A DNA stretch of 64,000 bases from a virus. The translations under genes and the position numbers were made by a program. Positions 2,924 through 64,000 of this stretch are shown here, in pieces (within the stretch, counting starts at the first letter, position 1; each line of letters opens with the position of its first letter). The notes below the pieces were generated by a model that made no database searches, was not told where the DNA came from, and saw only the letters and a list, made by a program, of their open reading frames with translations. The DNA lies in IMG/VR virus record IMGVR_UViG_3300035698_007508, positions 32,001 to 96,000 of that record, one strand, 5' to 3'.

Positions 2924-2986
2924 AATGAGTTGCATACATCGTGGCGACTGTAGTACCGTAATATGCACATCTTGGAAGGAGACAAC

Positions 2987-7495: not shown

Positions 7496-10348
7496 ATGAA
7501 GTTGGCTGACGTTCTGGCGACCCCGCCAAATAGCTTGATCAAGGACGCGGATATCGAGAGTCCCGACGAGGCGCAACTGGAGCGGGACTTTGCGAGCATG
7601 GCGTTCGTGTTCTTGCGTGACCGAGCCCCGGCGCTTATGCCCTATCTATTAGGGTTCGAGGTCGTAGACCGCGAAGAAGACGGTTCCCGCGCTATCGGTA
7701 TCTTTGGATTCAAGATCTCCGGCGAATACTACTACGTCCCCGCGTTCTTCGTGAACCAGCAGGTCAAAGGTATGGACCTGTTGTTCGCCAAGAAGACCAA
7801 CAGTTTCATGCCGCTGCGTGAGACCTGGATCAATCATTTGCTCGACAAGTCCACGTTACAGCTCGGCGAAGGCCGTAACGACAAGAAGCTGCGCGAAGAC
7901 TTCGAGAACCCCAATTTCGACTTCATCTCGTCACCGCCTGGTACGACCAAGCTGGCCAACGCCGGACTCGGTTACCTGTTCACAGCAGAGGAACTGGCTA
8001 AGTTGGGTCAGATTGTCACACCGGCACAGACGTCGGGTATCCCGCGTCCCCTGATGATGGCACAGCAGGCACAACCGGGCGCACAGCCGCAGCAGGACCC
8101 GAACGCCAGCGGCGCAGCTGTACAGCCACCACCAGCGTCCGGCGTCGTGCCGGTAGGTAACGTGGCCACACTTCAACAGGCTGGTCAGGTACTACCCGGG
8201 AACGTCACCGGTCAGACACCGCAGTTCCCCGGTAAGGCTGCAGGCGTTAGCGCACGCGGTAAGCGAGACGGTAGCGGTCCATACGGTGCTAGTGCGCAGC
8301 GTTCGTTGACCGGTGATAAGGGCGTACGTCAACTTGCTGGCGAAGAATGTCCGATGGCGGCCGGCGGCACCAAGGCCGATTCAGAACTCACACCGGCGGA
8401 AGCCAAGGCGCGTAAAGCGTGGAAGTCTAGCCAAAAACAGGCCGGGTGGCACGTTGGCCAGTGTCACGAAGCATGGAACGATATACAGGGCGCCGTCGCG
8501 GAAAGCATGGCCAAGGATGCCGCTTTTCAGATGGACTGGGCCGGGTTCGTCGCAGCTCTCAACAAGCAGACCCTTGACGATTGGCACAAAACGGCTGACG
8601 GTAGCCCTCTTCTTTCATACATCGCGCACCACGGTGGTCCACGGGCTGCACGTGCGCTGATGACGTCGCTGGGTAACGTGAAGTTCGCCAACGCGGCCCT
8701 TCTTTTTTACCCATCAGTCGAGTCCCTGTACGTGCACGAGTTCGACGCCAGCCTACAGCCCGAGAAGCGTGCAGCTACGATCAGCGTGGTCAGTAGCGGC
8801 GAGATGGATGGACCATGTTGCCCTGAAGACGCTTCCGACGCCGAGCGTAAACGTCTGGTACGCGATAGTTTCAGCATCATCGATCGCCGTGACTCCGAGT
8901 CCAAGTCGGAAGTGTTCGACGCTGCGTACGAGAAGCAGTACTCTAATCCGACCGAGAGCGGTACCTACGACTTGTTACTGCCAACCGGTAGTACGGCCGA
9001 GGCCTGGGTTCTACAACAGGCGGGCGGACAACCTGGTAAGGGCCTGGTAGTTGTCGAGCCGTCCAATCGTTTCTTCTTCACTGCCGATCCATCCCGCGTA
9101 TACGTACGCGGGGAACAGCGGGACGGTGATGGCCCGTACGCTAAGGCCAAGTCGCTGGGTAGCATGCAATCGGACGAGCGCTACATCCTGGTCAACGAGC
9201 GCGGCGACGCAAGCGCGCCATTCCGCGTACAAGCCGTGGTGGCCGAGAACGGTGAGCGCGTACGCATCCGTGTGAACTTTGAGACCTGTGTGGATCACGC
9301 GAAGTCACGTGCTGGTACGTTCGACGGTATCAGTGATGGTTACTATGACGATCGCACCAAGTACCTGCAGCTGTCCGACGACTCCAGTCCGAAGCTGCGT
9401 AAGGCCAATGAGAACCTGATTGTGTCCAAGGCATGGAAGGTAGTGAGCCTGGTCGACAAATACGATTACGCTCGCCCACCCAAGGCTATGGACGATCCGG
9501 AAGAGCGTTCCGCCGCACGTTCCGCCGCGGAGAATGCGTACGACGCGTTCTCACCCGGTGACCCTATTGACTTGGAAGAGGCATTCGGCAAGCACGCGAT
9601 CCATCGACTGACTGTTGAGGCTGCGGACCAGGGTAACACCTTCTATAGCTACTTCGACGGTTACACCGACGGTCCGTGGACGCAGAAGCAGGCCATGCTC
9701 AAGCTGGTTACCAAGTACGGCATGAGCGTTGACGACGCCGAGGACACGATGCTGGACGCCGTGGCGAACATGAAATCACGCAAGCTGATCAAACTGGCGC
9801 AGGGTGTCGGTATCGGCATGAACATGCCGCAACCCCCGAGCGCTACCGGCTCTGACCCGAGCACGGGAGTTCCGATCGAGGAACCGTGGACTGGTACCGA
9901 GACCGGCGAAATGCTGGGCGCACCGCCGCTGGCTGATACGATGGAGCCTGGCTACGCTGTCGGCGGGCAGACCGAGAACGAACTGTCCAGCGGTGGGCAG
10001 CAGGACGCGGGTCAGGAAGCTATGGCCCTGTCTGAACAGGCTGCCCAGACCGGTCAGAAGAACGTGTTCGATCACGCGACGATCGGTGGACTGGTACGCC
10101 TGTACGACGCTTCATCTGTGATCGATCAGTACGTACCCGAGCTGATCAAGGCGCTCGACCGCGTCGGTCGTATTCTCTTCATTTTCTACTGGAAGAACGA
10201 GGACTTCGCGGAACGTTACGGCAAGGAAGACCTGGCCGAAATGGAAGACCTGATCCGCGGTGTGTTCAAATCGTTCGGCGACTTGGTGCTCAAGTTGAAG
10301 CAGAAGTCGGTCGGTTCCGACGACAGCAAGGACGTGTTGGCGATATGA
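7496..10348 (+). CDS. Large multi-domain hypothetical protein, putative processed head/inner-body protein
   Basis: 950-aa ORF with strong SD; globular-looking N- and C-terminal blocks separated by Q/P/A-rich linkers bounded by K-x-A motifs. Confidence 0.75.
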   Translation: MKLADVLATPPNSLIKDADIESPDEAQLERDFASMAFVFLRDRAPALMPYLLGFEVVDREEDGSRAIGIFGFKISGEYYYVPAFFVNQQVKGMDLLFAKKTNSFMPLRETWINHLLDKSTLQLGEGRNDKKLREDFENPNFDFISSPPGTTKLANAGLGYLFTAEELAKLGQIVTPAQTSGIPRPLMMAQQAQPGAQPQQDPNASGAAVQPPPASGVVPVGNVATLQQAGQVLPGNVTGQTPQFPGKAAGVSARGKRDGSGPYGASAQRSLTGDKGVRQLAGEECPMAAGGTKADSELTPAEAKARKAWKSSQKQAGWHVGQCHEAWNDIQGAVAESMAKDAAFQMDWAGFVAALNKQTLDDWHKTADGSPLLSYIAHHGGPRAARALMTSLGNVKFANAALLFYPSVESLYVHEFDASLQPEKRAATISVVSSGEMDGPCCPEDASDAERKRLVRDSFSIIDRRDSESKSEVFDAAYEKQYSNPTESGTYDLLLPTGSTAEAWVLQQAGGQPGKGLVVVEPSNRFFFTADPSRVYVRGEQRDGDGPYAKAKSLGSMQSDERYILVNERGDASAPFRVQAVVAENGERVRIRVNFETCVDHAKSRAGTFDGISDGYYDDRTKYLQLSDDSSPKLRKANENLIVSKAWKVVSLVDKYDYARPPKAMDDPEERSAARSAAENAYDAFSPGDPIDLEEAFGKHAIHRLTVEAADQGNTFYSYFDGYTDGPWTQKQAMLKLVTKYGMSVDDAEDTMLDAVANMKSRKLIKLAQGVGIGMNMPQPPSATGSDPSTGVPIEEPWTGTETGEMLGAPPLADTMEPGYAVGGQTENELSSGGQQDAGQEAMALSEQAAQTGQKNVFDHATIGGLVRLYDASSVIDQYVPELIKALDRVGRILFIFYWKNEDFAERYGKEDLAEMEDLIRGVFKSFGDLVLKLKQKSVGSDDSKDVLAI

Positions 10349-11364
10349 TCTTGGGCAACCGCGATATCCGGACCCCGTTCATCAGCGAGGGCGATGATCC
10401 GCTGAACGTGGTATGCGACTGGCCGCACCAGGTCGCCGTAGCCATGCGGGATCAGAATATCAAGTATCGTCGGTTACCTAAGGTACTGAGAGACACGCCT
10501 GAGTGTAAGTTGATTTGTACGCATGCCGAGTTCTTGACCGCGTTCGCGCAGTCAGAGGCTGCGGCGCGGAAGAAGTACAACCTACACCACATCGCTGACG
10601 GTTGGTTTACGCGTCGTGGTGAGTCGCTGGGTAGGGATTATGTGGATCCTATGTTGCTCGGCGGCGCGCCTCACGGGGTGACCGCGGCGCTATGCGGGGA
10701 AGAGGTATTGATGCAGAAGTGCCCGATAGAACTGATTGAGATCTATGAGAAGCTGTTCTACCATTGCCGCGCCGCAGACGGCACGATGGTGGCTTCGCCA
10801 ATCCGTAAACGTATCTTGGCACTCAATGGCCAACCTACGTTGACGCCCCGTGCGACAGCGCAGGACAAATGGAAAGCCGTGGCGGCGATTTTCGACTATT
10901 CAACGCTCGTCGAGTACTGGGGCTTCTGGGAGATTGACACGGCCGGCTCGTTACCGGACGCTGTACGGTTCATGCGCCAGAAACGTTATGGACAAGAGCA
11001 TATGTTTGAGCGTATTATGACGGGGCAAATTGATGATGAACAGACACTTGCAATGGTAAGCCAGAGTATGGAGCACGAAAAGCAACAGTTTGAGATGGGC
11101 GCTGGTGCCAGCGAGAACGTGTGGGCACAGCTATTCGGTCGTGTATTGCAACTGGTGGCGCCGGAACTAGCTCCGCTGCCACAGTCCGAAGCGCAGATGC
11201 AGTCCCAGAGTGCTGCACTGACCCGCAAACTGGAGGCGCAGCGCAACGTGCATACCATCGATGTAGAGGACGCTGGTCCTGCTGCTGGCCGTGACGCACG
11301 CAATCAACAGATTCAGCAACACTTAGAGGCTGAAGCAGCAAGACAGGAGGCACCGGTACAATGA
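10345..11364 (+). CDS. Hypothetical protein
   Basis: 339-aa ORF with ATGA overlaps at both ends. Confidence 0.75.
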   Translation: MILGNRDIRTPFISEGDDPLNVVCDWPHQVAVAMRDQNIKYRRLPKVLRDTPECKLICTHAEFLTAFAQSEAAARKKYNLHHIADGWFTRRGESLGRDYVDPMLLGGAPHGVTAALCGEEVLMQKCPIELIEIYEKLFYHCRAADGTMVASPIRKRILALNGQPTLTPRATAQDKWKAVAAIFDYSTLVEYWGFWEIDTAGSLPDAVRFMRQKRYGQEHMFERIMTGQIDDEQTLAMVSQSMEHEKQQFEMGAGASENVWAQLFGRVLQLVAPELAPLPQSEAQMQSQSAALTRKLEAQRNVHTIDVEDAGPAAGRDARNQQIQQHLEAEAARQEAPVQ

Positions 11365-12839
11365 TCGATCCAGTACTGAAGGATAAGCTGATGGGAGCAC
11401 TCCAAACCAGCGTTGATCATATCAACGGTGGTATGCAGGCTCAGGAAGCGGTGGTTAAGGCAGCCACCGCCGCAGACTTTAACGTCGAACAGTCCCGCCG
11501 GTTGTGCGAGCTGTTCAACACCGCCCGTACCCTATATCATTTCGAGCGGAACCCCGGCCAGAAGGAGGCGTCATTCGAGCTGATCGACGCCGACGCAGTG
11601 CTTGGTGATATCTTCACCGCACCCGGGACCGCGCCGAAGATTGCGCAGGATGCAGTTCCCGACTATACTGAGTACGATAGTCCTGAACTGATGGTACGGG
11701 ACGGCATGGTAGTCGAGGCCGCCGCCGAACTTTGGCCCAAAGCGGCCGAAGCGCTCCCGAGCCTGGATATGCAAGCCCGCCGGGCATATCGCATCATAGA
11801 TACGCAGCGTGGACTGGCCGACCAGACGCAGTCCGAGTGTAGGCAGGCCGAGATTCACATATCGCAGTCATTGAGTAAACTTGCGGCGGCCATCGGGCAA
11901 GACTTCAGCTTGAACGGTCCGGCACGCTATGCGCGATTCCTACGGGCCCGTGACGGCCAGGAGGATCAGCCCGTAGTGGCTAAGCTGGCAGAGTTCCTAC
12001 CGGCCTACGTCAAGGTCAGTGCAGGCGATCTGGCGGCCTGTGGCCGTATCGTCGAGGACCGCGACCTACAGCCGTGGTTCGCACACATCGATTTTGCGCG
12101 TCAGATGGAGCATCAGGCTACTGCCTCGTTGGCCATTGCACGCACTGTGGCGAAGGAAGCACAAGCCTTCGAGGATGCCTTCGTCGGCATGGTCGGCGGA
12201 CAGCGACATGAACCAGATGTAATTGAGACCCTTCTCGCCCCTTTTGTGGAAAAACGTAGCGCCGAAGGCGCCGGCACGTACAGCATACCGACGCTGGACG
12301 TGGGTGCTGCGTTTGGACTGACACCGGAGCGCACGACGCCTGCGAGCCTGCGTGGCGAGGGTAACAAGAACCTCGGTACCCGCACCGTAGAGCGTCAGCC
12401 GGGCTTGGCCGGTAAGCTGCTTGGCGGCACCGGTGGTATCGTCGGCGAGGCCACGAAGGATTACGTGACGTCCGGGATCAAGACGTTGGGACAACGCGGC
12501 GTGGCCGAGAACCGTACGATCACGGACCGGTTAAAGAATCAGCAACGCGAAGTACTGCTACAGGACCTGCTGGCCACCGATCCGTTTATCAGCGAAGCCG
12601 ATCCACAATCTGTGGCTAATGGGTACCTGACGATCATGCAGGTAGCGCCCGAGGTGTCCACCAACAAGGAAGTGGTCCGTGCGGTGTTGCGGCAGCTGAT
12701 ACACACCGGCGCGCTTAGCACGTTCGACGCGTCGTCGCTGGCCGACCTTGAGAAGACTATTCGCGAAACAGCTGGTACACTACCAGTGCGGCAAACTGTG
12801 GGGGCAATTGGCCGGGACCGCAGTAGTAGACGAAGATGA
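11361..12839 (+). CDS. Hypothetical helical protein, putative head-associated
   Basis: 492-aa ORF, ATGA-coupled; K-x-A motifs confined to the N-terminal ~300 aa. Confidence 0.75.
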   Translation: MIDPVLKDKLMGALQTSVDHINGGMQAQEAVVKAATAADFNVEQSRRLCELFNTARTLYHFERNPGQKEASFELIDADAVLGDIFTAPGTAPKIAQDAVPDYTEYDSPELMVRDGMVVEAAAELWPKAAEALPSLDMQARRAYRIIDTQRGLADQTQSECRQAEIHISQSLSKLAAAIGQDFSLNGPARYARFLRARDGQEDQPVVAKLAEFLPAYVKVSAGDLAACGRIVEDRDLQPWFAHIDFARQMEHQATASLAIARTVAKEAQAFEDAFVGMVGGQRHEPDVIETLLAPFVEKRSAEGAGTYSIPTLDVGAAFGLTPERTTPASLRGEGNKNLGTRTVERQPGLAGKLLGGTGGIVGEATKDYVTSGIKTLGQRGVAENRTITDRLKNQQREVLLQDLLATDPFISEADPQSVANGYLTIMQVAPEVSTNKEVVRAVLRQLIHTGALSTFDASSLADLEKTIRETAGTLPVRQTVGAIGRDRSSRRR

Positions 12840-13189
12840 AGATCCGGACATACAAGAAGTTGGAAGGCGGTATCTACCGCGTATCCATGTACACACAGGA
12901 CTGGTCAGAACTGGATCAACAGCTGATGGCCAAGTTTGACGAGCCTGAGATCGATCTAGGCGGTACGTTTACCGGCGCGCCGTCGCTCGATTTCGACCTG
13001 GACAACGACTTGGTACGGATCATGAGCGAATCACCGTTCTCCGTCGCTTTCGATATCGATGATTACGCGGACGCGCACGACCGCGCCGAACTCTGGGCCG
13101 ATACGATTCAGGCTCGGATCACGAGCGCCGTTTTCGCGCTCCGGTTGAATGCGGACGGATACACCGGCGAAGAGGTCACGGAGGTCTGA
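12836..13189 (+). CDS. Hypothetical acidic protein
   Basis: 117-aa ORF, ATGA-coupled. Confidence 0.75.
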   Translation: MKIRTYKKLEGGIYRVSMYTQDWSELDQQLMAKFDEPEIDLGGTFTGAPSLDFDLDNDLVRIMSESPFSVAFDIDDYADAHDRAELWADTIQARITSAVFALRLNADGYTGEEVTEV

Positions 13190-13190
13190 T

Positions 13191-14246
13191 ATGGACAAAG
13201 AAGCACAATGGGCACAGAACGCATTGGAAGCCGTACGACGTGCCGGATCGCGTGGAGCTGATGCGGTACGCAGTATTCCACAGGTTCGGCAGTTACAAAG
13301 GTCGTTAAAGGACAATCCGCAGCTCAAACAGATGCTGGTCAACAGTTTGATAGGCGCCGGCGCCGGCGCTGGTACGCTCGGCCTGGCTCGTGCGTTCACA
13401 CCGCATGACGAGGAAGAGGATAAGGGAAAGGGCGTCGTGAGTCAGGCGCTACTCGGGGCGTTACTCGGCGGCACGGCAGGTGCGGGCTTTACCGGTATGA
13501 AGCAGTTGTTCAAGCAGCCACCCGCGCCGCCGCCAGCCGCTGCAAGTATGGGCAAGCGAATAGGTAACGCGGCCAGCAACTCCGGTACTGCCACAATAGG
13601 CGCTGGACTACAAAACCCGGGCGCTATCGCCGGCGGAGCACTGGCAGGCGCGACGCACTTCGGCTTTACTAGCATGATGGGGCAACGTGGTTTCCGTACC
13701 GCGCATCCGGTAGTCGATCGCCTACGTGAACTGCGTGCGTCGTCAATGGCACAGAAAGATATGGCACTAGTGTCGGAGATTGATAATATATTGAATAAGT
13801 TTGACAACACTGTAGCCATGCGTCCTGGTCGCTTTCCCACGTTTCGGAAGGCTGTAGGGCACGGCGGCGGGTTACGCGGTAAATTGAATCGGTTGCGTAA
13901 GCCGGCTCCGGGCGCAGTGACACGTAGGCCCACATTCGTTTCCGTGCCCGGTGTACCTCCGAAGGCACGTGGTTGGTTCGGGCGACTGGGTCAGTCGTCT
14001 ACCGGATCCAAAGCTATACGCGACGTCAAGGGCGCAGTGAGGGGTAGGTCTGTATTGAAGCGTGGATTGCGTCGTAGGTCGTTGACTGGGTTACTCGCCA
14101 GTATGATGGGTGGCGCGTATGTCGGCGACAAGATGCAGGACTACCTGGCAGGTCAGGATCACTATGATCCGAACTGGCGTCCGCCGAGTCATACACAGAA
14201 GATCATCCAGCCGTGGACAGACCTAGCAGCGGGAGCTGACAAATGA
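13191..14246 (+). CDS. Glycine-zipper, Arg/Lys-rich protein, putative internal/ejection protein
   Basis: GGAGGT SD then ATG 13191 (MDKEA...); segments LIGAGAGAGTLGL, ALLGALLGGTAGAG, IAGGALAGA and a very basic C-terminal third. Confidence 0.7.
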   Translation: MDKEAQWAQNALEAVRRAGSRGADAVRSIPQVRQLQRSLKDNPQLKQMLVNSLIGAGAGAGTLGLARAFTPHDEEEDKGKGVVSQALLGALLGGTAGAGFTGMKQLFKQPPAPPPAAASMGKRIGNAASNSGTATIGAGLQNPGAIAGGALAGATHFGFTSMMGQRGFRTAHPVVDRLRELRASSMAQKDMALVSEIDNILNKFDNTVAMRPGRFPTFRKAVGHGGGLRGKLNRLRKPAPGAVTRRPTFVSVPGVPPKARGWFGRLGQSSTGSKAIRDVKGAVRGRSVLKRGLRRRSLTGLLASMMGGAYVGDKMQDYLAGQDHYDPNWRPPSHTQKIIQPWTDLAAGADK

Positions 14247-15703
14247 TTGATCGACACGAAGAAGAAGGCCTACGTAAACTCACGTTCTCGGATCAGTTCC
14301 GGCCTGAAGTAGAGGTTGGGCTGCAGCTGGTGGAAGATCCCGCTGTGTTCGCCAAGACAGCGAGTGTCACGTTCGACTGCACGGCGGAAGCCCTGAAACC
14401 GGACAAAGATCATGTGGGTATCCACGCTGTGGCGCTGGGCGATTTCGAGCACTACGGTATGAACCGCAACGGTGACGGTTTTCCCAAGAAAGCATGTCAG
14501 ACCCGGCACGAGACGTTTGTTACGCACGGGCACATGTTCATCGGACACAACAACCGGGACCGTGACCAGGCCGTAGGACAGATCGTCAAGTCCGGTTACA
14601 ACGAGCCTATGGGTCGTATCCAGCTCTTCCTACACGCACACAAGGACAAGTCCCAGGCACAACTGCACAAGTTGGCAACGACCGGCGAACACAGTTTCAG
14701 CATGGCCTGCCGTGTACCATTCGACCGTTGCGACATATGCAATACCTTGCGCAAGTCAGCAGCAGACCCTAACCAGTGCGCGCACATCCGCGACAGCTTG
14801 GGCGAGACGTTTGAGGATGGTAAGGTGGCCTGCACGCAGAACGACTTCCCGACCTGGTTCGACATGAGCTGGGTTGACCGACCGGCGGACCGTATCGCCT
14901 GGAACCTCAAGGTCGCCATGGCACATGGCCGGCAGGATGCTGTCAAACAAGCAGAGTCCAGCGGGTTGTGGGTCCCAGACGAGCTGGAGTGCAATGTGCC
15001 CGGTTACCAGCGTAAACTGGCGACGGTACAGAAGCTGGCCACGCTGGAAGAGAAGTATGCGGCCCTGGCCGCTAGTCAGACGCCACCTCGTGGCTATGAC
15101 CGGTACCTTTGGGACTTACGTAAGGCTGCTGCTTTCGACCTGTCGGATGCGCAGTTGGATCGGCTACGGACGTTCAATCCGGAGCAGGTCTTCGCGAAGT
15201 TGGCCGCGGCTGGGGTTGTGTTGAGCGCACCTGCGTTCTTCAAGTTTGCCCTGGGCCTGGGTTACGGCGAGCTGGCATCAGAAATGCCGAGTATACTGGA
15301 CAATGTACGTGTTGGACTGTTCGGTAGACTGTACAAACAAGGTGGATACCAACGGACGTGTCGGAATACGTATTTCGACGTTGACACCCGTGCGCTCGAA
15401 GCGTATGGTTGGGGCCACAATTCAGAACTGACACAGTTTGTCAGCGAGAAAGTGGCAAGTGCCGGCGCTTTTGTCGGCCACAGCGTAGAGGCGCGGATTA
15501 TTGATGCGACGATTTGTGGTAGACAACCGGAAGTAGGTATGCCAATATCTGTGAAAGTTGCTTCGGGGACTACGGTCCACCGCGGCGCTGAAATTTACGC
15601 GGCGTACAAACTGAGCGCATTAAGCGCGATGGAAGTCTGCCATAAGCAGGCAAACGCGGACGCGCTGTTGGCTTTAGCGGCAGTCCAGAACCTGGTGAAG
15701 TGA
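14243..15703 (+). CDS. Prohead (capsid maturation) protease, HK97/assemblin-like, with Zn-ribbon insert and long C-terminal extension
   Basis: NRNGDGF; His in MFIGHN; Ser in SFSMAC; CDIC..CAH; FDMSWVDRPAD. Lies upstream of scaffold, decoration and capsid genes. Confidence 0.8.
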   Translation: MIDRHEEEGLRKLTFSDQFRPEVEVGLQLVEDPAVFAKTASVTFDCTAEALKPDKDHVGIHAVALGDFEHYGMNRNGDGFPKKACQTRHETFVTHGHMFIGHNNRDRDQAVGQIVKSGYNEPMGRIQLFLHAHKDKSQAQLHKLATTGEHSFSMACRVPFDRCDICNTLRKSAADPNQCAHIRDSLGETFEDGKVACTQNDFPTWFDMSWVDRPADRIAWNLKVAMAHGRQDAVKQAESSGLWVPDELECNVPGYQRKLATVQKLATLEEKYAALAASQTPPRGYDRYLWDLRKAAAFDLSDAQLDRLRTFNPEQVFAKLAAAGVVLSAPAFFKFALGLGYGELASEMPSILDNVRVGLFGRLYKQGGYQRTCRNTYFDVDTRALEAYGWGHNSELTQFVSEKVASAGAFVGHSVEARIIDATICGRQPEVGMPISVKVASGTTVHRGAEIYAAYKLSALSAMEVCHKQANADALLALAAVQNLVK

Positions 15704-15722
15704 AACATAAAGGAGAGTAATC

Positions 15723-17075
15723 ATGGCAACGATGGAACAGATCCTTGCTGAGACCACAGCAATCATGCAACAGAAACAGGCGTCCTTTAAGAAGGGTGCT
15801 ATGTCTGGACAGGATCCAAGCTCAATGCCCGGAAGCGACAAGGACAAGCCGATCCCCGAGGGGAGCGAGAAGCCCGACAGCGAAGTGAATGATGGTACCA
15901 TGGGTCCCACCAGCTCACGTTCGACCGAAGGCGCGGGCGACGATAGTCCCGTAACTCGTGGCGACGCCGTTGATTCCGAGCAGTCGGTCAAGGAACCTAC
16001 CAAGAAACCCGCAATCACCGCTGACGCGAATGCCAAGACGGCCGATGAACATTGTGCGAAACTCGCCAATGACCTGATCGGCAGCATTCACGAGTGGCAG
16101 CAACAGAAGCAGGCCGCAGAAGCTGCATCCGCAACCAAGCCAGCAGCCAAGCCGGCCGAGAAGGGCGCTGGAGCAGCACCTGCAGTTAAGCCCGCAGTTA
16201 AGCCCGTAGCCAAGGTTGACGACAGTACGCCCAAGGAAGCGGCCGGATTCAATATGGACCTGACGCAGGACGTACTCGCCAAGATGGCCGCGATCGCGCT
16301 GTCATATGACGAGGGTGTTACGTTTATGGAAGGTATGCTCCAGAAGTATGCCGGTCAGCAGTACGCGCAGCAGGCCATTCAGTTCCTGACAGATCAGAAT
16401 GAGCAGGCCGAGAAGGAAGCAGCAACTGATCAGGGCTACCAGGATGGTATGCGCATGATCCAGAAGCAGTCTTTCCAACGGGGCCAGCAGTCCATCCTCA
16501 CAGCACTCGCTCAGGCCAAGCAGGCCAACGCGAAGGGTGTGAAGGGTGCGGCACCGACGTTCGATCTCGAAGCACTGGCCAAGCTTGGTCAGGCAATGGC
16601 TGACGGTTCCATCGCTGATGTGATGGGTGCAATGCCCGAAGGCGGCGCAGGCATGGGTGGCGACGTCCCCGGTGCTGAAGCGGCTATGGGCGCCATGGGC
16701 GGCGGAATGGGCGGCGAAATGGGCGGCGAAATGGGTGGAGCACCGATGGAAGGCGCACCTGATGGTATGCCAGCCGAAGGTGGCGAAGAAGAGTTCACCG
16801 TCGAAGATCTTGCAGCTGCGCTTGACATTCTCGTATCCCAGGGTGCTATCGGCGAAGAAGAAGCCCAGCAGATCATGGAATACGTAGGCGCATCCGAAGG
16901 CGGCGCTGAAGGCGCGCCAGCCGAGGGTGCGCCGGCAGAGGGCGGCGAAGCGCCGGCAGAGGCCGCACCGGCAGAGGGCGGCGAAGCACCAGCGAAAGCA
17001 CCGGCGAAAGCACCAGCGAAAGCACCACCGGCGAAAGAGGAGCCCCCAGCTGACGGCGGCGAGAAAGTTGAATAA
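15723..17075 (+). CDS. Putative capsid scaffolding protein (low complexity)
   Basis: Position between protease and capsid genes; Ala/Glu/Gly/Pro-rich and disordered-looking; many K-x-A motifs. Confidence 0.6.
   Translation: MATMEQILAETTAIMQQKQASFKKGAMSGQDPSSMPGSDKDKPIPEGSEKPDSEVNDGTMGPTSSRSTEGAGDDSPVTRGDAVDSEQSVKEPTKKPAITADANAKTADEHCAKLANDLIGSIHEWQQQKQAAEAASATKPAAKPAEKGAGAAPAVKPAVKPVAKVDDSTPKEAAGFNMDLTQDVLAKMAAIALSYDEGVTFMEGMLQKYAGQQYAQQAIQFLTDQNEQAEKEAATDQGYQDGMRMIQKQSFQRGQQSILTALAQAKQANAKGVKGAAPTFDLEALAKLGQAMADGSIADVMGAMPEGGAGMGGDVPGAEAAMGAMGGGMGGEMGGEMGGAPMEGAPDGMPAEGGEEEFTVEDLAAALDILVSQGAIGEEEAQQIMEYVGASEGGAEGAPAEGAPAEGGEAPAEAAPAEGGEAPAKAPAKAPAKAPPAKEEPPADGGEKVE
16986..17036 (+). repeat. 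12-nt tandem repeat GCACC(A/G)GCGAAA encoding (APAK)n
   Basis: Four units, the last with an extra Pro codon; near-identical array at 19571-19630. Confidence 0.9.
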
Positions 17076-17090
17076 CAGTCAACTTTCTTG

Positions 17091-17119
17091 TTGCGCCACC
17101 CTATACGGAGGTGTACTAT
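17091..17119 (+). promoter_or_regulatory. Candidate sigma70-type promoter TTGCGC-N17-TACTAT
   Basis: Just after the scaffold stop and upstream of the decoration/capsid genes. Overlaps the SD and ATG at 17118; if real, GTG 17139 would be the start codon. Confidence 0.35.
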
Positions 17120-17540
17120 GAAATCTGAGGATAGGAACGTGAAAACCACTGCAGACGCACAGACAGTTAAACTGGCGCATGCTGAGACCCTGCTGAAGCA
17201 AGCGGCTGAGTACGTATCGACAGCACAGCCACAGTTGGACAAGTATGCAGAGTTCACAGATCGCTTCGAGAAGCGCGCCCAGCAGGTTGCTGGCGTCCTT
17301 GTCGATCGCGGGATCATCCCGGCGGCACAGTCGGCCCTCCTGTTGCAGAAGTTTGCAGCAGACCCGACGAAGGCCCTTGACATGATCGCGCAGTTGGCCC
17401 GTCTCGTCGGCCCAGATCAGCTGGGCAAGAGCGCGGGTATCCGAGTACCGCAGGGTCGGAAACTCGGACCGTTCGAGGCGCTTGTCATGAACGGCGATTC
17501 GGCGAACACGCATTTCGAAAGTTCTGCGATGGTGGACTAA
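17118..17540 (+). CDS. Small helical head-associated protein
   Basis: GGAGGT SD 6 nt before ATG 17118; 6 of 10 Lys are in K-x-A motifs. Confidence 0.7.
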   Translation: MKSEDRNVKTTADAQTVKLAHAETLLKQAAEYVSTAQPQLDKYAEFTDRFEKRAQQVAGVLVDRGIIPAAQSALLLQKFAADPTKALDMIAQLARLVGPDQLGKSAGIRVPQGRKLGPFEALVMNGDSANTHFESSAMVD

Positions 17541-17572
17541 ACTGAAACAAGAAAGAAAATAAGGAGACAACA

Positions 17573-18106
17573 ATGTTGCTCAACGTGAAAAAGGGACCGT
17601 ATCCCTCGCTGACCCAGATGGACAAGGAACTGCTGCTTTCCGCCGATGAAACCGGCACAGTAGAGCGCGGTATCTGCCTCTATCAGGACACGAGTGATGA
17701 ATGGAAGATTGCCGGGGCCGCACAGGCCGGTAACGCGACAACGCCTGGCGCACTGATCTACTTCGCGCTTCAAGCCGAAGATGATCTGACGGCGCAGATG
17801 GCTGGTGGCGTACCTATCAGTGATAGCGTACAGCCAAAGATCGCCGCAATCTCATGCTCGCCTACGATCGAGATCGAGACGGACATGTTTACCGGAGTGC
17901 TCACCAGCGGGCAGAATCTGTCCGTCGGCGCGGATGGTAAGTTGGTCGCACATACGACCAATGCGACGATCATCGCACGAGTGACCAAGGCTGCGTACAC
18001 CCGCTGGGTGAACAACGCTTCGGCTGTGGCTGGCTGGCGCACGGGTAACAACGTGACTGCGATTCGCGCAATCACGATGTATGCACCGCAAGTGGCAACC
18101 GCGTAA
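17573..18106 (+). CDS. Head decoration/cement protein (putative)
   Basis: 177 aa, beta-rich, directly upstream of the capsid gene; RGICLYQD..WKIAG and SGQNLSVGADGKLVA resemble beta-tulip cement proteins; strong AAGGAG SD. Confidence 0.6.
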   Translation: MLLNVKKGPYPSLTQMDKELLLSADETGTVERGICLYQDTSDEWKIAGAAQAGNATTPGALIYFALQAEDDLTAQMAGGVPISDSVQPKIAAISCSPTIEIETDMFTGVLTSGQNLSVGADGKLVAHTTNATIIARVTKAAYTRWVNNASAVAGWRTGNNVTAIRAITMYAPQVATA

Positions 18107-18150
18107 CCTGACTGGAAAGTCTTTCGGACCTCAAACAAGGAGATAAGGCA

Positions 18151-19122
18151 ATGGAAGCTACCGCACAAGACACCACTCAGAATGTACCTACCGACGTAAT
18201 GAATCGTCGCGTCCTGGATTTCCTGGACCGTGGCGAGACCGTTAAGGTCGCGCAGGCTGCATCTGATTACACCCGTATCCAACTCCGTGAAGATTCCTTC
18301 GCTATGAAGATCATCACGCCGGAGAAGGCTACGGACGACATGCTGGACCGAGACCTGGATGAGCGCCTGCGCATCATCGAGGAATTGGAGCCAGATTCAC
18401 CCGCCGCCAAGTGGGTTCCTCTGCAGGACACCCCGGACGGTGAGTACATCTACGGGTCACGGTACGTCGTGCCTTTCGCTCGTATTCTCACGCCTAAGTT
18501 CGTGAAGGATATCGACGAGTTGCGCACATACCGTCAGGACGTTCGCAAGATCCTGACCCAGAACTCCATCAAAGACGGCCTGGCCGAATACGATGGCAAG
18601 TTCATCGAGACCTGCGTGGCGATCGCTGAGGATACCTCTGGCAGCGTCCCGGGTGCACAGTCCTTCACCGGTAAGGTGCAGTGGACCGCGTACTCTGGCG
18701 GCCTGACGAAGAACAACCTCGTCGAAGCGTTCAAGATGCTCCCCCGCGGCAACAGCAACGGCAAGTTCCGCCTTCGCAACTACATCATGCTGATGAACGA
18801 TGTGACGGCCCAGGACTTGAAGAAGCTGGACGTTGGAGAGATCGGTGACGAGAACGTGAGCCGCATGTGGCGTGAAGGTCTGACGACTGACACAACCATG
18901 GGGCTGAAGGCCATCTTCACGATCAAGGACGACCTCGTCCCTGACAACCGTGTATGGTTCTTCCCCGAACCCGGATTCCTGGGCAAGGCGTACTACCTGA
19001 CCGACTGGACCATGTATATGAAGAAGGAAGCGTTCTTTATAGAGATGTTCAGCTACTGGCTGGGCGGCATGGCCATCGGTAACGTAGCCGGTGTCTGCGT
19101 GGCTGACTTCGATTATTCGTAA
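18151..19122 (+). CDS. Major capsid protein (HK97 fold, putative)
   Basis: 323 aa; strongest RBS context and most biased codons; followed by a strong terminator; protease-scaffold-decoration-MCP synteny; HK97-like layout (LREDSFAMKII, backbone helix KILTQNSIKDGLAEYDGKFI). Confidence 0.75.
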   Translation: MEATAQDTTQNVPTDVMNRRVLDFLDRGETVKVAQAASDYTRIQLREDSFAMKIITPEKATDDMLDRDLDERLRIIEELEPDSPAAKWVPLQDTPDGEYIYGSRYVVPFARILTPKFVKDIDELRTYRQDVRKILTQNSIKDGLAEYDGKFIETCVAIAEDTSGSVPGAQSFTGKVQWTAYSGGLTKNNLVEAFKMLPRGNSNGKFRLRNYIMLMNDVTAQDLKKLDVGEIGDENVSRMWREGLTTDTTMGLKAIFTIKDDLVPDNRVWFFPEPGFLGKAYYLTDWTMYMKKEAFFIEMFSYWLGGMAIGNVAGVCVADFDYS

Positions 19123-19146
19123 GTCGGACACTTGGATTGAACTCAG

Positions 19147-19178
19147 AGGGCCGGACTGGCAACGGTCCGGCCCTTTTT
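19147..19178 (+). terminator. Intrinsic terminator after the capsid gene
   Basis: AGGGCCGGACTG-GCAA-CGGTCCGGCCCT: 12-bp stem (one G-U), GNRA loop, then TTTT. Confidence 0.9.
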
Positions 19179-19237
19179 CTCGTAGAGTTTAATGAGTAAG
19201 TCGCACGGCCTATCGGCCGCAGCATAGGAGAACAATC

Positions 19238-19813
19238 ATGGATAGGTTTTTAGACGGATTCGCGGCCGAGGCCGCGGCGCACGGTATCGCCGCGCATGAC
19301 TTGGAGCAGCTACTCAAGACCGCGGACATCATCGCGATGCGCCTGTCGAGCCCTGACTTTGCTGCTGCCATGGACGCCGAGTTTGCCAAGGCTGGTCAGA
19401 GCGTCAAAAGTGCGCAAAGCGGCGCCGCATTCACAGCGGGGCGGACTATTGCGAATTTACGGGGCACGGTAACAGCGCCATACCAGGCTGTAGGCCGCGG
19501 TTTCGGCGCTTTGCGACGCGCACGTAACAATTTCTTAACGGGTGTGACTGGGTGGGCACCAGCCGGTGCAGCACCAGCGCAAGCACCGGCGAAAGCACCA
19601 GCGAAAGCACCGGCGAAAGCACCGGCGAACACGCCGTTTCAACAGCTCGACCAGGACGCGTACATGCGGTTGCCCCCGGCAGGCCAAGCTGATTACCAGC
19701 GCCGCCTCGCAATTGACCGGGCCGGACGAGCCACGTGGCGCAACATGCATCAGACACCCGGCGCAAGCCGCCACAGCCGTTCGACGTTAGCGTCGTCGGG
19801 ATATGGCTGGTAA
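19238..19813 (+). CDS. Hypothetical Ala-rich protein with APAK repeat
   Basis: AGGAG SD; leader with LLKTA and VKSA motifs; basic C-terminus. Confidence 0.7.
   Translation: MDRFLDGFAAEAAAHGIAAHDLEQLLKTADIIAMRLSSPDFAAAMDAEFAKAGQSVKSAQSGAAFTAGRTIANLRGTVTAPYQAVGRGFGALRRARNNFLTGVTGWAPAGAAPAQAPAKAPAKAPAKAPANTPFQQLDQDAYMRLPPAGQADYQRRLAIDRAGRATWRNMHQTPGASRHSRSTLASSGYGW
19571..19630 (+). repeat. Five 12-nt units encoding APAQ-APAK-APAK-APAK-APAN
   Basis: 19581-19611 is identical to 16996-17026. Confidence 0.9.
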
Positions 19814-62893: not shown

Positions 62894-64000
62894 ATGGACG
62901 TCCTTCACGACAACAGCTTTCGTACTTGGACCAAAATCGCGTCCGTAGTCGGGGAAGCCAATATCCCGGATTACGTACGACAATATACACCGCCAGATGA
63001 GCAGACTGCAAGCGCTATGTCGGACTCCGACTTTGCTGACCCGGGCAAGCGGGCCTGGCCGATCGACAGTCAGGCTGCTACGTGGCTATCTGCGGCGTAC
63101 ATGTTAGAGAAGGAAGCAGGACCTCTTGCTGCACTCATTGCACGCAGCTTTAATAGGCGAATCGTCAAACCAGTTGGGGCCAAGTTGAAGCAAACAATAC
63201 GTGACTGGCTCGCTACGCCCGCAGTTGAGCCGCCATCTGATGTACCCGTGCCTGGTACGGCGTCTGCGAAGATTGCAGAAGCCGTGCTAGCGTGGGATAT
63301 CAAAGATGACGTGCTCAAATTGGCCGAGGCGTTCGTGGCGCGTACAGGGCAGACCAAGCAGGCAAGCGCTGTTGAAGCCAACTACGGCTGGATCCTCAAG
63401 GACGCATCCGGAGCTGTCACAGCCCGTCGTTACGGCGTGTTTGATGTACTGGGCCTGGGTAAGGCTGCGACCTATTTTGACGCCAACCGCCGGCATTATC
63501 CGCTCGCTATCAGGACCGGTATCGCCCGATTCCTCATGCAGAAGGCTGCGGAGTACGCGGTCGAGTACGAACAGTTGCCGACCAGCGTGTTGCGCGAAGC
63601 CGGGTACGGTGTGCCCCGTAAGTCCGTGATCATGCGCGAACTTAACGAGCGGGCACAACTTGCCAAAGATGCCGAATGCGGGATCCTACTAGCCAACGTA
63701 AACCGATTGATCGGTACCGGCACGGATGCGGAAGTCGCTGAGAACCTGGACAAGATTGCCGAAACAATTGACGCGTTTGATCAGGCAGAAGACCTTACAC
63801 GTTACTACGGTAAGCGCATCACGCACCCGTCTGACTTCCTATGCAGCGTGACCTTCAAAGAGGCTGAGGCCTTCGTCGAGAACACGGTGACATTGCGGAA
63901 ACTATCGTTCGACGTGCGCAAGCTACATACGACACCTGCGTTCCATAAGGCGGCTCAAACCGCCATGGGCGACGACTTCGATAACGCGTTGCGGGGACTC
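62894..64000 (+). CDS. K-x-A-rich protein with two DUF6582-like motifs (3'-truncated; absent from the ORF track)
   Basis: AAGGAG SD 8 nt before ATG 62894; 369 open codons to the window end. Motifs FADPGKRAWPIDSQAATWLSAAY and RRYGVFD..GKAATYFDAN..YP...IARFLMQKAAEY. Confidence 0.8.
   Translation, partial: MDVLHDNSFRTWTKIASVVGEANIPDYVRQYTPPDEQTASAMSDSDFADPGKRAWPIDSQAATWLSAAYMLEKEAGPLAALIARSFNRRIVKPVGAKLKQTIRDWLATPAVEPPSDVPVPGTASAKIAEAVLAWDIKDDVLKLAEAFVARTGQTKQASAVEANYGWILKDASGAVTARRYGVFDVLGLGKAATYFDANRRHYPLAIRTGIARFLMQKAAEYAVEYEQLPTSVLREAGYGVPRKSVIMRELNERAQLAKDAECGILLANVNRLIGTGTDAEVAENLDKIAETIDAFDQAEDLTRYYGKRITHPSDFLCSVTFKEAEAFVENTVTLRKLSFDVRKLHTTPAFHKAAQTAMGDDFDNALRGL

What the first reader, a model, noticed from the sequence alone, without database searches (positions are those of the whole stretch)
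7496..19813. A K-x-A motif marks head-associated proteins: candidate prohead-protease cleavage code
Counted by hand, Lys followed two residues later by Ala: 16 of 26 Lys in the protease (11 of 14 after its catalytic domain), 6 of 10 in 17118-17540, about half in the scaffold, and 13 of 21 in 62894-64000. Controls: 7 of 49 in the RNAP ORF and 1 of 9 in the tube. In the capsid protein the motif sits at the end of the N-terminal arm (TVKVA|QAAS). Several proteins have short leaders ending in it (MDKEA, FQKKA, IKDA, LLKTA). Established: T4 gp21 and phiKZ gp175 cut many head proteins after short motifs ending in Glu. Inference: this lineage uses K-x-A instead, shredding scaffold-like segments and trimming propeptides, and the motif predicts which unknown genes are packaged in the head.
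Basis: partly seen in the sequence, partly recalled or inferred. Interest (0 to 1): 0.85.

Follow-up and report, generated by a model that had tools for sequence, protein, structure and literature searches.

The report
Lys-x-Ala head-protease cleavage code
The head-building proteins of this uncultured phage and its many relatives carry far more Lys-x-Ala than chance allows, most likely marking where the phage's own capsid protease cuts, a rule unlike the cut-after-glutamate rule of studied phages, though no cut has been measured.

Summary
Every hand count was reproduced: 16 of 26 Lys in the protease, 16 of 32 in the scaffold-position protein, 6 of 10 in 17088-17540, and 13 of 21 in 62894-64000.

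The excess is 4-5 times what composition predicts. It is confined to offset +2, to Lys (not Arg) and to Ala (not Gly or Ser). It does not depend on codon choice or genome GC. It recurs in the same syntenic proteins of 26 related contigs, of Salmonella phage Arash and of Vibrio phage D69, and in more than 200 protease homologs.

The 486-aa protein has a T4 gp21 / herpesvirus-assemblin fold. Its two invariant K-x-A sites lie in the two disordered segments that flank the catalytic domain. A K-x-A 8-9 residues before the conserved capsid-protein core is kept in 133 of 134 homologs while the middle residue varies.

The same blind scan on T4 recovers its known I/L-x-E code.

The best reading is that K-x-A is the cutting signal of this protease family, with P1 Ala as in herpesviruses. 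Cleavage is inferred, not shown.

The claim that the motif predicts packaged proteins is only weakly supported. I found no publication of this rule. This scan has flagged the same motif on several other genomes.

The parts
14243..15703 (+). Prohead protease precursor, 486 aa. It has a disordered leader (1-38), a catalytic domain (about 40-217), a disordered linker (218-231) and a helical C-terminal domain (233-486). 16 of its 26 Lys are K-x-A.
   Evidence: PHROG 18299 'head maturation protease', E 2e-5. AlphaFold model with mean pLDDT 83.8. VIA-align: T4 gp21 5jbl Z 10.1, rmsd 2.9, 126 residues aligned; herpesvirus proteases Z 6.2-8.8. Counts.
14354..14362 (+). K38-T-A40, invariant. It sits at the end of the disordered N-terminal leader. 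Proposed site where the protease removes its own leader.
   Evidence: K-x-A in 100% of 109 aligned homologs and invariant in A1. pLDDT is below 50 for residues 1-20 and 23-38.
14909..14917 (+). K223-V-A225, in the disordered linker between the catalytic and C-terminal domains. Proposed release site, analogous to the herpesvirus R-site.
   Evidence: K-x-A in 98% of 109 homologs. pLDDT is below 50 for residues 218-231. Herpesvirus R-site architecture from PMC4498786.
14699..14710 (+). S153-M-A-C156, an invariant motif holding the candidate catalytic serine. In relatives it is the commonest intein insertion point.
   Evidence: S153 and M154 are invariant. Inteins are inserted directly before C156 in at least 10 long-form homologs. 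The catalytic role is inferred, not mapped residue by residue.
15723..17075 (+). Scaffold-position protein, 450 aa, Ala-rich with an acidic G/M/E/P-rich tail. All 16 K-x-A sites lie in its first 276 residues.
   Evidence: Counts. It lies between the protease and the capsid gene, as T4 gp22 does. 11 homologs carry 9-19 sites each; two positions are 100% conserved and 43% of sites lie in private columns.
17118..17540 (+). Small 140-aa head-module protein (150 aa from the TTG at 17088). 6 of its 10 Lys are K-x-A.
   Evidence: Homologs in 8 loci carry 4-6 sites each, 4.35 times expectation.
11361..12839 (+). 492-aa head-module protein, homolog of Arash gp220 'structural protein'. 7 of its 18 Lys are K-x-A. 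Candidate core or internal protein.
   Evidence: Shuffle p 0.0075. 22 family members carry 7-16 sites each, 2.96 times expectation; K33 is conserved in 91% and K173 in 86%. Arash gp220 has 10 against 3.0 expected.
7496..10348 (+). 950-aa virion protein, homolog of Arash gp218 'structural protein' and probably not the portal. 12 of its 54 Lys are K-x-A, including a leader site K16-D-A18 (nt 7541-7549).
   Evidence: Shuffle p 0.0155. The family shows 2.42 times expectation, and the K16 site is conserved in 63%. Arash annotates gp204 as the portal.
18151..19122 (+). Major capsid protein, 323 aa. The proposed mature form starts at Q35 (289 aa).
   Evidence: Its profile hits the phage G major capsid protein gp27, PDB 6wkk, E 3.5e-5. 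It is 31% identical to Arash gp226 'major capsid protein'. The AlphaFold model failed (pLDDT 36).
18244..18252 (+). K32-V-A34, the proposed propeptide cleavage site of the capsid protein.
   Evidence: K-x-A is present in all 15 aligned capsid proteins, the query and 14 homologs including Arash and D69. It is present in 119 of 120 further homologs, 8-9 residues before the conserved Y/F-T-R..RED anchor. The middle residue varies (V, K, M, T, Q, I, L, R, E) and the upstream leader varies in length and sequence.
62894..64000 (+). K-x-A-rich protein outside the head module. It runs to 64090, beyond the window, and lies upstream of the polyvalent multi-enzyme protein. Candidate packaged cargo or targeting protein.
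   Evidence: 13 of 21 Lys in the window, 14 of 22 in the full ORF, p <= 0.0005. Its ortholog in a complete 210-kb relative has 13 against 3.4 expected.
19238..19813 (+). Ala-rich 191-aa protein with LLKTA at residues 25-29. Not enriched overall; membership is doubtful.
   Evidence: 2 of 6 Lys, expected 1.4. A homolog was found in only one locus.

Best explanation
**Proposal.** K-x-A, more fully [L/F]-x-K-x-A followed by S/A/E, is the recognition and cleavage signal of the phage's own capsid-maturation protease (14243-15703). This enzyme has the T4 gp21 / herpesvirus-assemblin fold.

**Proposed sequence of events (inferred).**
1. The protease is made as a 486-aa precursor. Its C-terminal helical domain takes it into the prohead core, together with the scaffold-position protein, the 492-aa and 140-aa proteins and the cargo proteins.
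2. After shell assembly the protease cuts after the Ala.
3. It frees its own catalytic domain at K38-T-A40 and K223-V-A225.
4. It cuts the scaffold-like proteins into many pieces, at 6-16 sites each.
5. It removes a leader of about 34 residues from the capsid protein at K32-V-A34.
6. It trims or separates cargo proteins.

**Shown here.** The motif excess and its exact specificity; its conservation and turnover across the lineage; the protease fold; and the position of the invariant sites at domain boundaries.

**Inferred.** That the motif is cut at all; that the bond cut follows the Ala; that this protease does it; and the order of events.
For: 1. **Excess.** Observed K-x-A is 4-5 times composition in the protease and neighbouring proteins.
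2. **Sharp profile.** There is a spike only at offset +2 (39% Ala against 9-17% elsewhere), with no +3/+4 or heptad periodicity.
3. **Residue specificity in the head families.** K-x-A 2.74 times expectation, against R-x-A 0.93, A-x-K 0.74, K-x-G 0.90 and K-x-S 0.62.
4. **Not a DNA motif.** Codons at the sites mirror overall usage, and the signal holds from 39% to 63% GC.
5. **Lineage-wide.**
   - 120 protease homologs: 1833 sites against 446 expected.
   - 86 further representatives from 50%-identity clusters: 3.38 times expectation.
   - The same syntenic families are enriched in 26 IMG/VR loci, Arash and D69.
   - In a complete 210-kb relative the same set tops the list.
6. **Density is kept while positions move.** 43-56% of sites in three families lie in alignment columns shared by under 25% of members, yet each protein keeps 7-19 sites.
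7. **Fold.** T4 gp21 Z 10.1; herpesvirus proteases Z up to 8.8.
8. **Sites at boundaries.** The invariant K38-x-A40 and K223-x-A225 lie in the two low-confidence segments that flank the catalytic domain. This mirrors the protease-linker-scaffold precursor of herpesviruses (PMC4498786).
9. **Capsid-protein leader site.** It is kept in 133 of 134 homologs with a variable middle residue.
10. **Extended logo.** P1' is enriched for Ser/Ala and excludes Pro, Leu and Ile. P5 is Leu/Phe.
11. **Positive control.** The same blind pair scan on T4 gp67/68/21/22 puts I-x-E and L-x-E on top (gp22 16 against 5.8 expected). That is the experimentally established gp21 motif (PMC9026906).
Against: - No direct evidence of cleavage exists for any member. 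The Arash proteomics paper and its supplement give no peptide-level data.
- Many sites lie inside confidently predicted helices of the protease C-terminal domain, not in loops.
- K82-K-A84 aligns with the NRN..YPK motif of T4 gp21, so it is probably a structural Lys.
- The packaged-type RNAP carries 13 K-x-A (8.5 expected) without obvious avoidance.
- Depletion in the mature capsid protein was seen in 15 diverse sequences (8 against 19.1) but not in 119 closer ones (178 against 188).
- In Arash the enrichment is much weaker (protease 7 against 3.2).
- The catalytic residues were not mapped by residue-level superposition.
- Homologs are phylogenetically related, so pooled counts overstate independence.
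Confidence: 0.68

Rival explanations
1. K-x-A is a short binding motif, not a cut site. Multiple copies would tether scaffold, core and cargo proteins to the inner capsid surface, the portal or each other, as a capsid-targeting or assembly signal, with no proteolysis at the motif.
For: The motif is multivalent in scaffold-like proteins, and many copies lie in helices. It also occurs in proteins outside the head module that may be cargo. T4 capsid-targeting sequences are short N-terminal signals (PMC9026906).
Against: The two invariant copies in the protease sit in the disordered segments that bound its catalytic domain. The capsid protein carries one copy at the end of a variable leader. Both are the pattern of processing sites. 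In T4 the same statistical signature corresponds to cleavage sites. Targeting and cleavage are also not exclusive.
Confidence: 0.12
2. The motif is cleaved, but by another enzyme: a host protease, or the phage subtilase at 52706-55051.
For: The genome encodes a second serine protease (subtilase matches). Staphylococcal phage 80alpha is a precedent for host-protease processing of capsid and scaffold proteins (from my own knowledge, not checked here).
Against: The subtilase was not found in Arash, D69 or two complete 210-kb relatives that all keep the K-x-A signal (the tool warns that an empty answer is weak). The motif is densest in the head protease itself and follows that protease family across hosts as different as Salmonella, Vibrio and a salt-lake community.
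Confidence: 0.07
3. K-x-A marks lysines for a modification or cross-link, such as acylation, methylation or an isopeptide bond, rather than for proteolysis.
For: The strict need for Lys and not Arg is what a Lys-directed enzyme would impose. HK97-type capsids use Lys-based cross-links (general knowledge).
Against: No candidate Lys-modifying enzyme was seen in the conserved head module. The motif is concentrated in scaffold-like proteins that are normally discarded, and is not enriched in the mature capsid protein. The fixed Ala at +2 and the Ser/Ala preference at +3 resemble an assemblin-type site (PMC4498786).
Confidence: 0.05
4. The enrichment is a by-product of composition or of Ala-rich amphipathic or coiled-coil helices and has no specific reader.
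For: The enriched proteins are Ala-rich (12-19%) and largely helical. L at -2 and E at -1 of the Lys could fit a heptad.
Against: Shuffles that preserve composition fail to reproduce it. There is no excess at +3, +4, +5, +6 or +7 (0.67-1.13 times expectation). There is none for R-x-A or A-x-K. Invariant copies lie in disordered segments. The signal is absent from other Ala-rich proteins of the genome, for example 2963-3607 and 21739-26352.
Confidence: 0.03

Closest known systems
Bacteriophage T4 prohead protease gp21 (PDB 5jbl) with its substrates gp22, gp67, gp68, gp23 and the internal proteins
   Same: - Best structural match to the catalytic domain: Z 10.1, rmsd 2.9, 126 residues.
- A shared N-terminal NRN..(Y/F)PK motif.
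- The same order of protease, scaffold and capsid genes.
- A three-residue motif over-represented in the protease itself and in scaffold and core proteins: T4 gp22 has 16 against 5.8 expected.
- Scaffold proteins cut into many pieces and leaders removed from shell and cargo proteins (PMC9026906).
   Different: - T4 cuts after Glu in L/I-x-E. Here L-x-E, I-x-E and A-x-E are at 1.05-1.33 times expectation, and the enriched motif is K-x-A.
- The protein is 486 aa against 212 aa, with a large helical C-terminal domain and a Cys3-His cluster.
- No Pfam protease family matches, even at E 10.
Herpesvirus assemblin / pUL26 protease-scaffold precursor (MEROPS S21)
   Same: - Same fold: VZV Z 8.8, PrV 8.3, HSV-1 7.5.
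- An N-terminal protease domain joined by a linker to a C-terminal scaffold-like part, with a release site in the linker.
- Sites with Ala before the cut and Ser or Thr after it. PrV has YLQA-T and VQA-S (PMC4498786). Here P1 would be Ala and P1' is enriched for Ser and Ala.
   Different: - Two residues before the Ala the herpes sites quoted have Leu or Val, not Lys. Here that position is strictly Lys.
- Herpes precursors have few sites (R, M and some internal ones). Here there are 6-16 per substrate, as in T4.
- The scaffold is also encoded as a separate gene, not as a nested in-frame product.
phiKZ gp175 / SPN3US gp245 giant-phage prohead proteases
   Same: Extensive processing of many head and ejection proteins at a minimal three-residue motif, self-cleavage of the protease, and N-terminal propeptides on packaged proteins (PMC10052503; PMC9026906). 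Phages of this lineage appear to carry an RNA polymerase in the virion, as Arash does (PMC10585845).
   Different: Those enzymes cut after Glu (A-x-E in SPN3US). A-x-E is not enriched here (1.05 times expectation).
Bacillus phage G gp19 (prohead protease candidate) and gp27 (major capsid protein, PDB 6wkk)
   Same: It is a cultured phage with sequence-detectable homologs of both the protease (tblastn E 2e-6) and the capsid protein (profile E 3.5e-5). K-x-A is moderately enriched in gp19 (8 against 2.5) and gp21 (7 against 2.8), and leaders of the portal, gp20 and gp21 end in K-x-A.
   Different: Enrichment is weaker (28 against 16.6 over the module). The phage G capsid protein has no K-x-A at all. 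The phage G structure paper (PMC7316594) was not held, so its processing data could not be checked.

Membership tests
T4 gp21 / assemblin-fold capsid maturation proteases | Catalytic domain with the gp21 / herpesvirus protease fold | tested here: met
   AlphaFold model with pLDDT 83.8. VIA-align gives 5jbl_A Z 10.1, rmsd 2.9, 126 aligned; 1vzv Z 8.8; 4v08 Z 8.3. Residues 53-226 are covered. Foldseek's top hits are the same families but with E 0.2-0.3.
T4 gp21 / assemblin-fold capsid maturation proteases | Sequence membership in a curated protease family (Pfam Peptidase_S77, S78, U35 and the like) | tested here: inconclusive
   No Pfam family matched, even at E 10. The PDB profile search was empty. 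PHROG 18299 'head maturation protease' matched at E 2e-5. hhalign to T4 gp21 aligned only the NRN..YPK motif, E 0.16.
T4 gp21 / assemblin-fold capsid maturation proteases | Conserved catalytic Ser and His | tested here: inconclusive
   S153, H61, H102 and H181 are invariant in 52 sequences. Inteins target the S153-M-A-C156 motif. No residue-level superposition on a solved active site was available.
T4 gp21 / assemblin-fold capsid maturation proteases | Gene lies in the head module, directly upstream of the scaffold and major capsid genes | tested here: met
   The order is 14243-15703 (protease), 15723-17075, 17118-17540, 17573-18106, then 18151-19122 (capsid protein). The same order holds in 26 loci and in T4.
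T4 gp21 / assemblin-fold capsid maturation proteases | Cleaves itself, the scaffold and the capsid protein during maturation | not testable with these tools
   This needs proteomics or biochemistry. The Arash dataset as published has no peptide-level information.
Glu-ending cleavage codes (T4 L/I-x-E; phiKZ and SPN3US S/A/G-x-E) | Over-representation of x-x-Glu motifs in the protease, scaffold and core proteins | tested here: not met
   In 83 head-family proteins L-x-E is at 1.33, I-x-E at 1.12, A-x-E at 1.05 and S-x-E at 0.98 times expectation, against K-x-A at 2.74. The same scan finds I-x-E and L-x-E on top in T4.
Herpesvirus assemblin-type precursor (S21) | Protease domain, then a linker with a release site, then a C-terminal scaffold-like domain | tested here: met
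   Catalytic domain about 40-217, linker 218-231 with pLDDT below 50 that holds the 98%-conserved K223-V-A225, and a helical domain 233-486. That the linker is cut is inferred.
Herpesvirus assemblin-type precursor (S21) | Cleavage between Ala and Ser/Thr, with a hydrophobic residue two before the Ala | tested here: inconclusive
   The logo of 1022 sites shows Ala fixed and the next residue as Ser 21% (2.9 times), Ala 21% and Glu 14%. The residue two before the Ala is Lys by definition, not hydrophobic. The scissile bond was not observed.

The most novel reading that the evidence does not exclude
K-x-A defines a third specificity class among assemblin-fold capsid proteases. It would have P1 Ala, as in herpesviruses, but a strict Lys two residues earlier. 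It would be shared by a very large, almost wholly uncultured phage lineage: 3296 protein clusters match the protease profile. The class may reach phage G-type megaphages. If so, the motif can be read from sequence alone to find propeptides, scaffold-like proteins and some packaged cargo, including multi-enzyme proteins cut into separate enzymes inside the capsid.
Probability: 0.55. Interest if true: 0.72.

Novelty: new variant of a known kind. Interest (0 to 1): 0.62.

Why it matters
Capsid maturation proteases of tailed phages and herpesviruses share one fold. The phage enzymes whose cutting rules are known (T4, phiKZ, 201phi2-1, SPN3US) all cut after glutamate.

A large phage branch that uses Lys-x-Ala would have three consequences:
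- It would show that specificity in this fold is more plastic than thought.
- It would place a phage enzyme next to the herpesvirus Ala-Ser rule.
- It would give a sequence-only handle on which proteins of these poorly annotated 120-210-kb phages are scaffolds, propeptide-bearing shell proteins or packaged cargo.

The rule is directly testable. Salmonella phage Arash and several Vibrio phages are in culture, and Arash virion mass-spectrometry raw data already exist.

Tried and rejected
**Alternative explanations rejected**
- Composition artefact: rejected by within-protein shuffles.
- Helical or heptad periodicity: rejected. The excess is at +2 only; +5 is depleted.
- Generic basic-small pattern: rejected. 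R-x-A, K-x-G and K-x-S are at or below expectation.
- DNA-level motif: rejected. K and A codons at the sites mirror overall usage, and the signal holds from 39% to 63% GC.
- A T4-type Glu code in this lineage: not found.
- The phage subtilase as the universal reader: not found in four relatives (weak negative).

**Searches that gave nothing**
- The search for related loci with the single protease sequence found nothing; the alignment query worked.
- blastn of the region against phages: no match.
- Pfam on ten head-module proteins, and again at E 10: nothing.
- PHROGs on the other head proteins: only marginal hits.
- A PDB profile search with the protease alignment: empty.
- The ESM Atlas look-up of 7496-10348 was uninformative.
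- A literature search for four spellings of the motif returned no paper.

**Failures and gaps**
- The capsid-protein AlphaFold model failed (pLDDT 36, 12 sequences). The position of K32-V-A34 relative to the HK97 fold therefore rests on alignment only.
- The Arash supplement holds sequences but no peptides.
- The phage G structure paper PMC7316594 is not held.

**Claims dropped or weakened**
- 'Avoidance' of K-x-A in the mature capsid protein is not robust: 0.42 times expectation in 15 diverse sequences but 0.94 in 119 closer ones, because of one conserved buried-looking site.
- Gordonia phage Stormageddon, a distant protease relative, shows no module-wide K-x-A signal.
- ORFs in the genome, the loci, Arash and G001 were called with a simple longest-ORF heuristic, so start codons and short leaders are uncertain.

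Full report
**What is in the window.** The region 7496-19813 is the head-assembly module of a large uncultured phage. The contig is 126,754 bp and the window covers 32001-96000 of it. All genes lie on the + strand:
- 7496-10348: a 950-aa protein.
- 10345-11364, 11361-12839, 12836-13189 and 13149-14246: four further genes.
- 14243-15703: a 486-aa protease.
- 15723-17075: an Ala-rich 450-aa protein in the scaffold position.
- 17118-17540: a 140-aa protein.
- 17573-18106: a 177-aa protein with a marginal head-decoration hit.
- 18151-19122: the major capsid protein.

The capsid assignment rests on two results. Its profile matches phage G gp27, PDB 6wkk, at E 3.5e-5. It is also 31% identical to Arash gp226, annotated 'major capsid protein'. 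Pfam recognises none of these proteins. The nearest cultured relatives are Vibrio phages D69, D148 and D181 and Salmonella phage Arash, at about 31-34% identity in the protease.

| Protein | K-x-A / Lys | Expected |
|---|---|---|
| Protease 14243-15703 | 16 / 26 (11 / 14 in residues 223-486) | 3.2 |
| 15723-17075 | 16 / 32 | 6.1 |
| 17088-17540 | 6 / 10 | 1.5 |
| 62894-64000 | 13 / 21 | 3.2 |
| RNAP ORF 1-2106 | 7 / 50 | 4.4 |
| 26377-26871 (tube-position) | 1 / 9 | 0.7 |

Within-protein shuffles give p <= 0.0005 for three proteins. They give 0.0075 for 11361-12839 and 0.0155 for 7496-10348.

In the seven enriched proteins, 39% of Lys have Ala at +2. Every other offset from -8 to +8 lies between 9% and 17%. 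The remaining about 120 ORFs of the genome are flat at 10.6%. A blind scan of all 400 residue pairs at offsets 1-4 over the whole proteome ranks K-x-A second, after the zinc-finger CxxC.

**Is it composition, helices or DNA?** None of these explains it.
- Across 83 proteins of the five head families in related loci, K-x-A is 2.74 times expectation. R-x-A is 0.93, A-x-K 0.74, K-x-G 0.90 and K-x-S 0.62.
- K..A at offsets 1 and 3-7 is 0.67-1.15 times expectation. There is therefore no helical (i+3/i+4) or heptad signal.
- At the sites, AAG/AAA and the four Ala codons are used in the same proportions as elsewhere.
- The signal is present in relatives from 39% to 63% GC.

**Conservation.** The signal is a property of the lineage.
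- 120 protease homologs (37-77% identity) hold 1833 K-x-A against 446 expected. Each has 11-22 sites, and 44% of all Lys have Ala at +2.
- A full HMM search finds 3296 clusters at 50% identity. Among the best 150, 86 new full-length representatives show 3.38 times expectation.
- In 26 IMG/VR loci, and in Arash and D69, the same syntenic families are enriched.
- In a complete 210-kb relative, the top of the genome-wide list is the protease, the ortholog of 62894-64000, and the orthologs of 11361-12839 and 7496-10348.
- Some sites are fixed. In the protease these are K38, K82, K223, K235, K294 and K334, at 85-100%. In the scaffold-position protein they are K18 and K187, at 100%.
- Yet 43-56% of the sites in three families sit in alignment columns used by under a quarter of members, while each protein keeps 7-19 sites. 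That is the behaviour of a short linear motif selected for presence and density, not of a fold constraint.
- The pooled numbers are not phylogenetically independent.

**Anatomy of the protease.** The AlphaFold model has mean pLDDT 83.8 and shows four parts:
- a disordered leader (1-38);
- a catalytic domain (about 40-217);
- a disordered linker (218-231);
- a confident all-helical domain (233-486).

The catalytic domain superposes on T4 gp21 (5jbl, Z 10.1, rmsd 2.9, 126 residues). It also superposes on herpesvirus proteases: VZV Z 8.8, PrV 8.3 and HSV-1 7.5. Foldseek ranks the same families first but with weak E-values.

The two most conserved K-x-A sites, K38-T-A40 and K223-V-A225, lie in the two low-confidence segments that bound the catalytic domain. 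This is the layout of the herpesvirus pUL26 precursor. In that precursor a release site in the linker frees the protease from a C-terminal scaffold part, and the sites end in Ala followed by Ser or Thr (PMC4498786).

A logo of 1022 sites extends the motif to [L/F]-x-K-x-A. The next residue is Ser or Ala (21% each) or Glu, and Pro, Leu and Ile are excluded.

One invariant site, K82-K-A84, aligns with NRN..YPK of T4 gp21. It is probably structural, so not every K-x-A should be read as a cut site.

**The capsid protein.** All 15 aligned capsid proteins, the query and 14 homologs including Arash and D69, carry a K-x-A at residues 24-35. The leader before it varies in length and sequence.

In 119 of 120 further homologs the K-x-A lies 8-9 residues before a conserved Y/F-T-R..RED anchor. 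K and A are fixed while the middle residue is V, K, M, T, Q, I, L, R or E. The single exception has K-L-G.

Cutting after A34 would leave a 289-aa mature protein. The structure model of this protein failed, so its relation to the HK97 N-arm could not be checked.

**Positive control.** T4 gp21 cuts after Glu in L/I-x-E. It cuts gp22, gp67 and gp68 into multiple fragments (PMC9026906). The identical blind pair scan on T4 gp67/68/21/22 returns I-x-E (15 against 5.9) and L-x-E (16 against 7.0) as the top pairs. gp22 has 16 against 5.8 and gp21 has 7 against 2.6. gp17-20 show nothing comparable.

So over-representation of a three-residue motif in the protease and its scaffold and core neighbours is a signature of a real cleavage code in a phage where the answer is known. 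The signal here is stronger than in T4. The T4-, phiKZ- and SPN3US-type Glu motifs are not enriched here (PMC10052503).

**Interpretation.** The most economical reader of a motif shared by three kinds of site is the protease itself. Those sites are the protease's own domain boundaries, the scaffold-like proteins and the capsid-protein leader. I put about 0.68 on K-x-A being its cleavage signal. Within that, the cut after Ala is favoured by analogy with both T4 (the third motif residue is P1) and herpesviruses (Ala before Ser).

Rivals:
- A non-proteolytic binding or targeting motif (0.12).
- Cleavage by another protease (0.07). The phage subtilase was not found in four relatives that keep the signal.
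- A Lys-modification site (0.05).
- Composition or helix bias (0.03).

- The motif is not a general predictor of packaged proteins. Only about 7 of 130 ORFs stand out.
- The RNA polymerase, whose Arash homolog gp206 was the protein detected most in Arash virions (PMC10585845), is neither enriched nor depleted.
- In Arash the genome-wide total is at expectation (254 against 266). There only gp220, gp225, gp223, gp242, gp222 and gp4 rise above background. All are virion-detected, but 116 proteins in all were detected in that preparation.
- Arash annotates gp204 as the portal, so 7496-10348, the homolog of gp218, is probably not the portal.
- Depletion of the motif in the mature capsid protein is not robust.

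**Novelty.**
- I found no paper using any of four spellings of the motif.
- The reviews read describe only Glu-ending codes for phage prohead proteases.
- The library lacks most subscription journals. The phage G structure paper could not be read.
- Phage G, a distant cultured relative, shows a weaker K-x-A excess in gp19 and gp21 but none in its capsid protein.
- This scan's own notes record the same motif on at least eight other genomes and, in this genome, in the polyvalent protein just beyond the window. I treated these as leads. My tests were run independently on this window and its relatives.
- No cut has been measured anywhere, so this remains a well-supported prediction.

Noticed in passing
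window 14699-14710 (S153-M-A-C156 of the protease); homologs P0002, P0003, P0012, P0051, P0056 and others: 57 of 258 protease homologs are long forms of 600-1189 aa, several with Hint or LAGLIDADG Pfam hits. The commonest insertion lies directly before C156 of the invariant SMAC motif (..FSMA|C...HN|CRVPFD). Others lie before C163 and near G72. The prohead protease gene is an intein hotspot in this lineage; the window's copy has no intein.
   Followed up: partly
window 14729-14785 (protease residues 163-181): An invariant C163-x2-C166-x12-C179-x-H181 cluster lies inside the catalytic domain and looks like a zinc-binding site. I do not know of one in T4 gp21 or the herpesvirus proteases. H181 may be a metal ligand rather than a catalytic residue.
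   Followed up: no
window 15723-17075 (residues about 420-437) and 19238-19813 (residues about 116-130): The same PAKAPAKAPAKAP repeat occurs in the tail of the scaffold-position protein and in the Ala-rich protein after the capsid gene. In this repeat Lys is followed at +2 by Pro, so it does not count as K-x-A.
   Followed up: no
window 7496-10348; Arash record OQ632216 128120-129859 (gp204): Arash annotates gp204, upstream of the RNA polymerase beta gene, as the portal. The window's 950-aa protein is the homolog of Arash gp218 'structural protein' and matches no portal family. Its role is unknown.
   Followed up: partly
window 52706-55051: The intein-bearing subtilase has its closest phage matches in Bacillus and Moorella phages. 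It was not found in Arash, D69 or two complete 210-kb relatives, so it seems to be a recent acquisition of this phage and not a lineage feature.
   Followed up: partly
window 21739-26352: This 1537-aa protein has a tail-sheath PHROG match only in residues 1156-1465. That is far longer than usual sheath proteins. The upstream 1150 residues are unassigned.
   Followed up: no
L029 (Bacillus phage G, JN638751 8137-26601): The phage G portal gp14, gp20 and gp21 begin with short leaders ending in K-x-A (..MAKQA, ..LKKTA, ..RKKLA), and the protease gp19 has 8 K-x-A against 2.5 expected. The motif may reach this cultured megaphage, although its capsid protein has none.
   Followed up: partly
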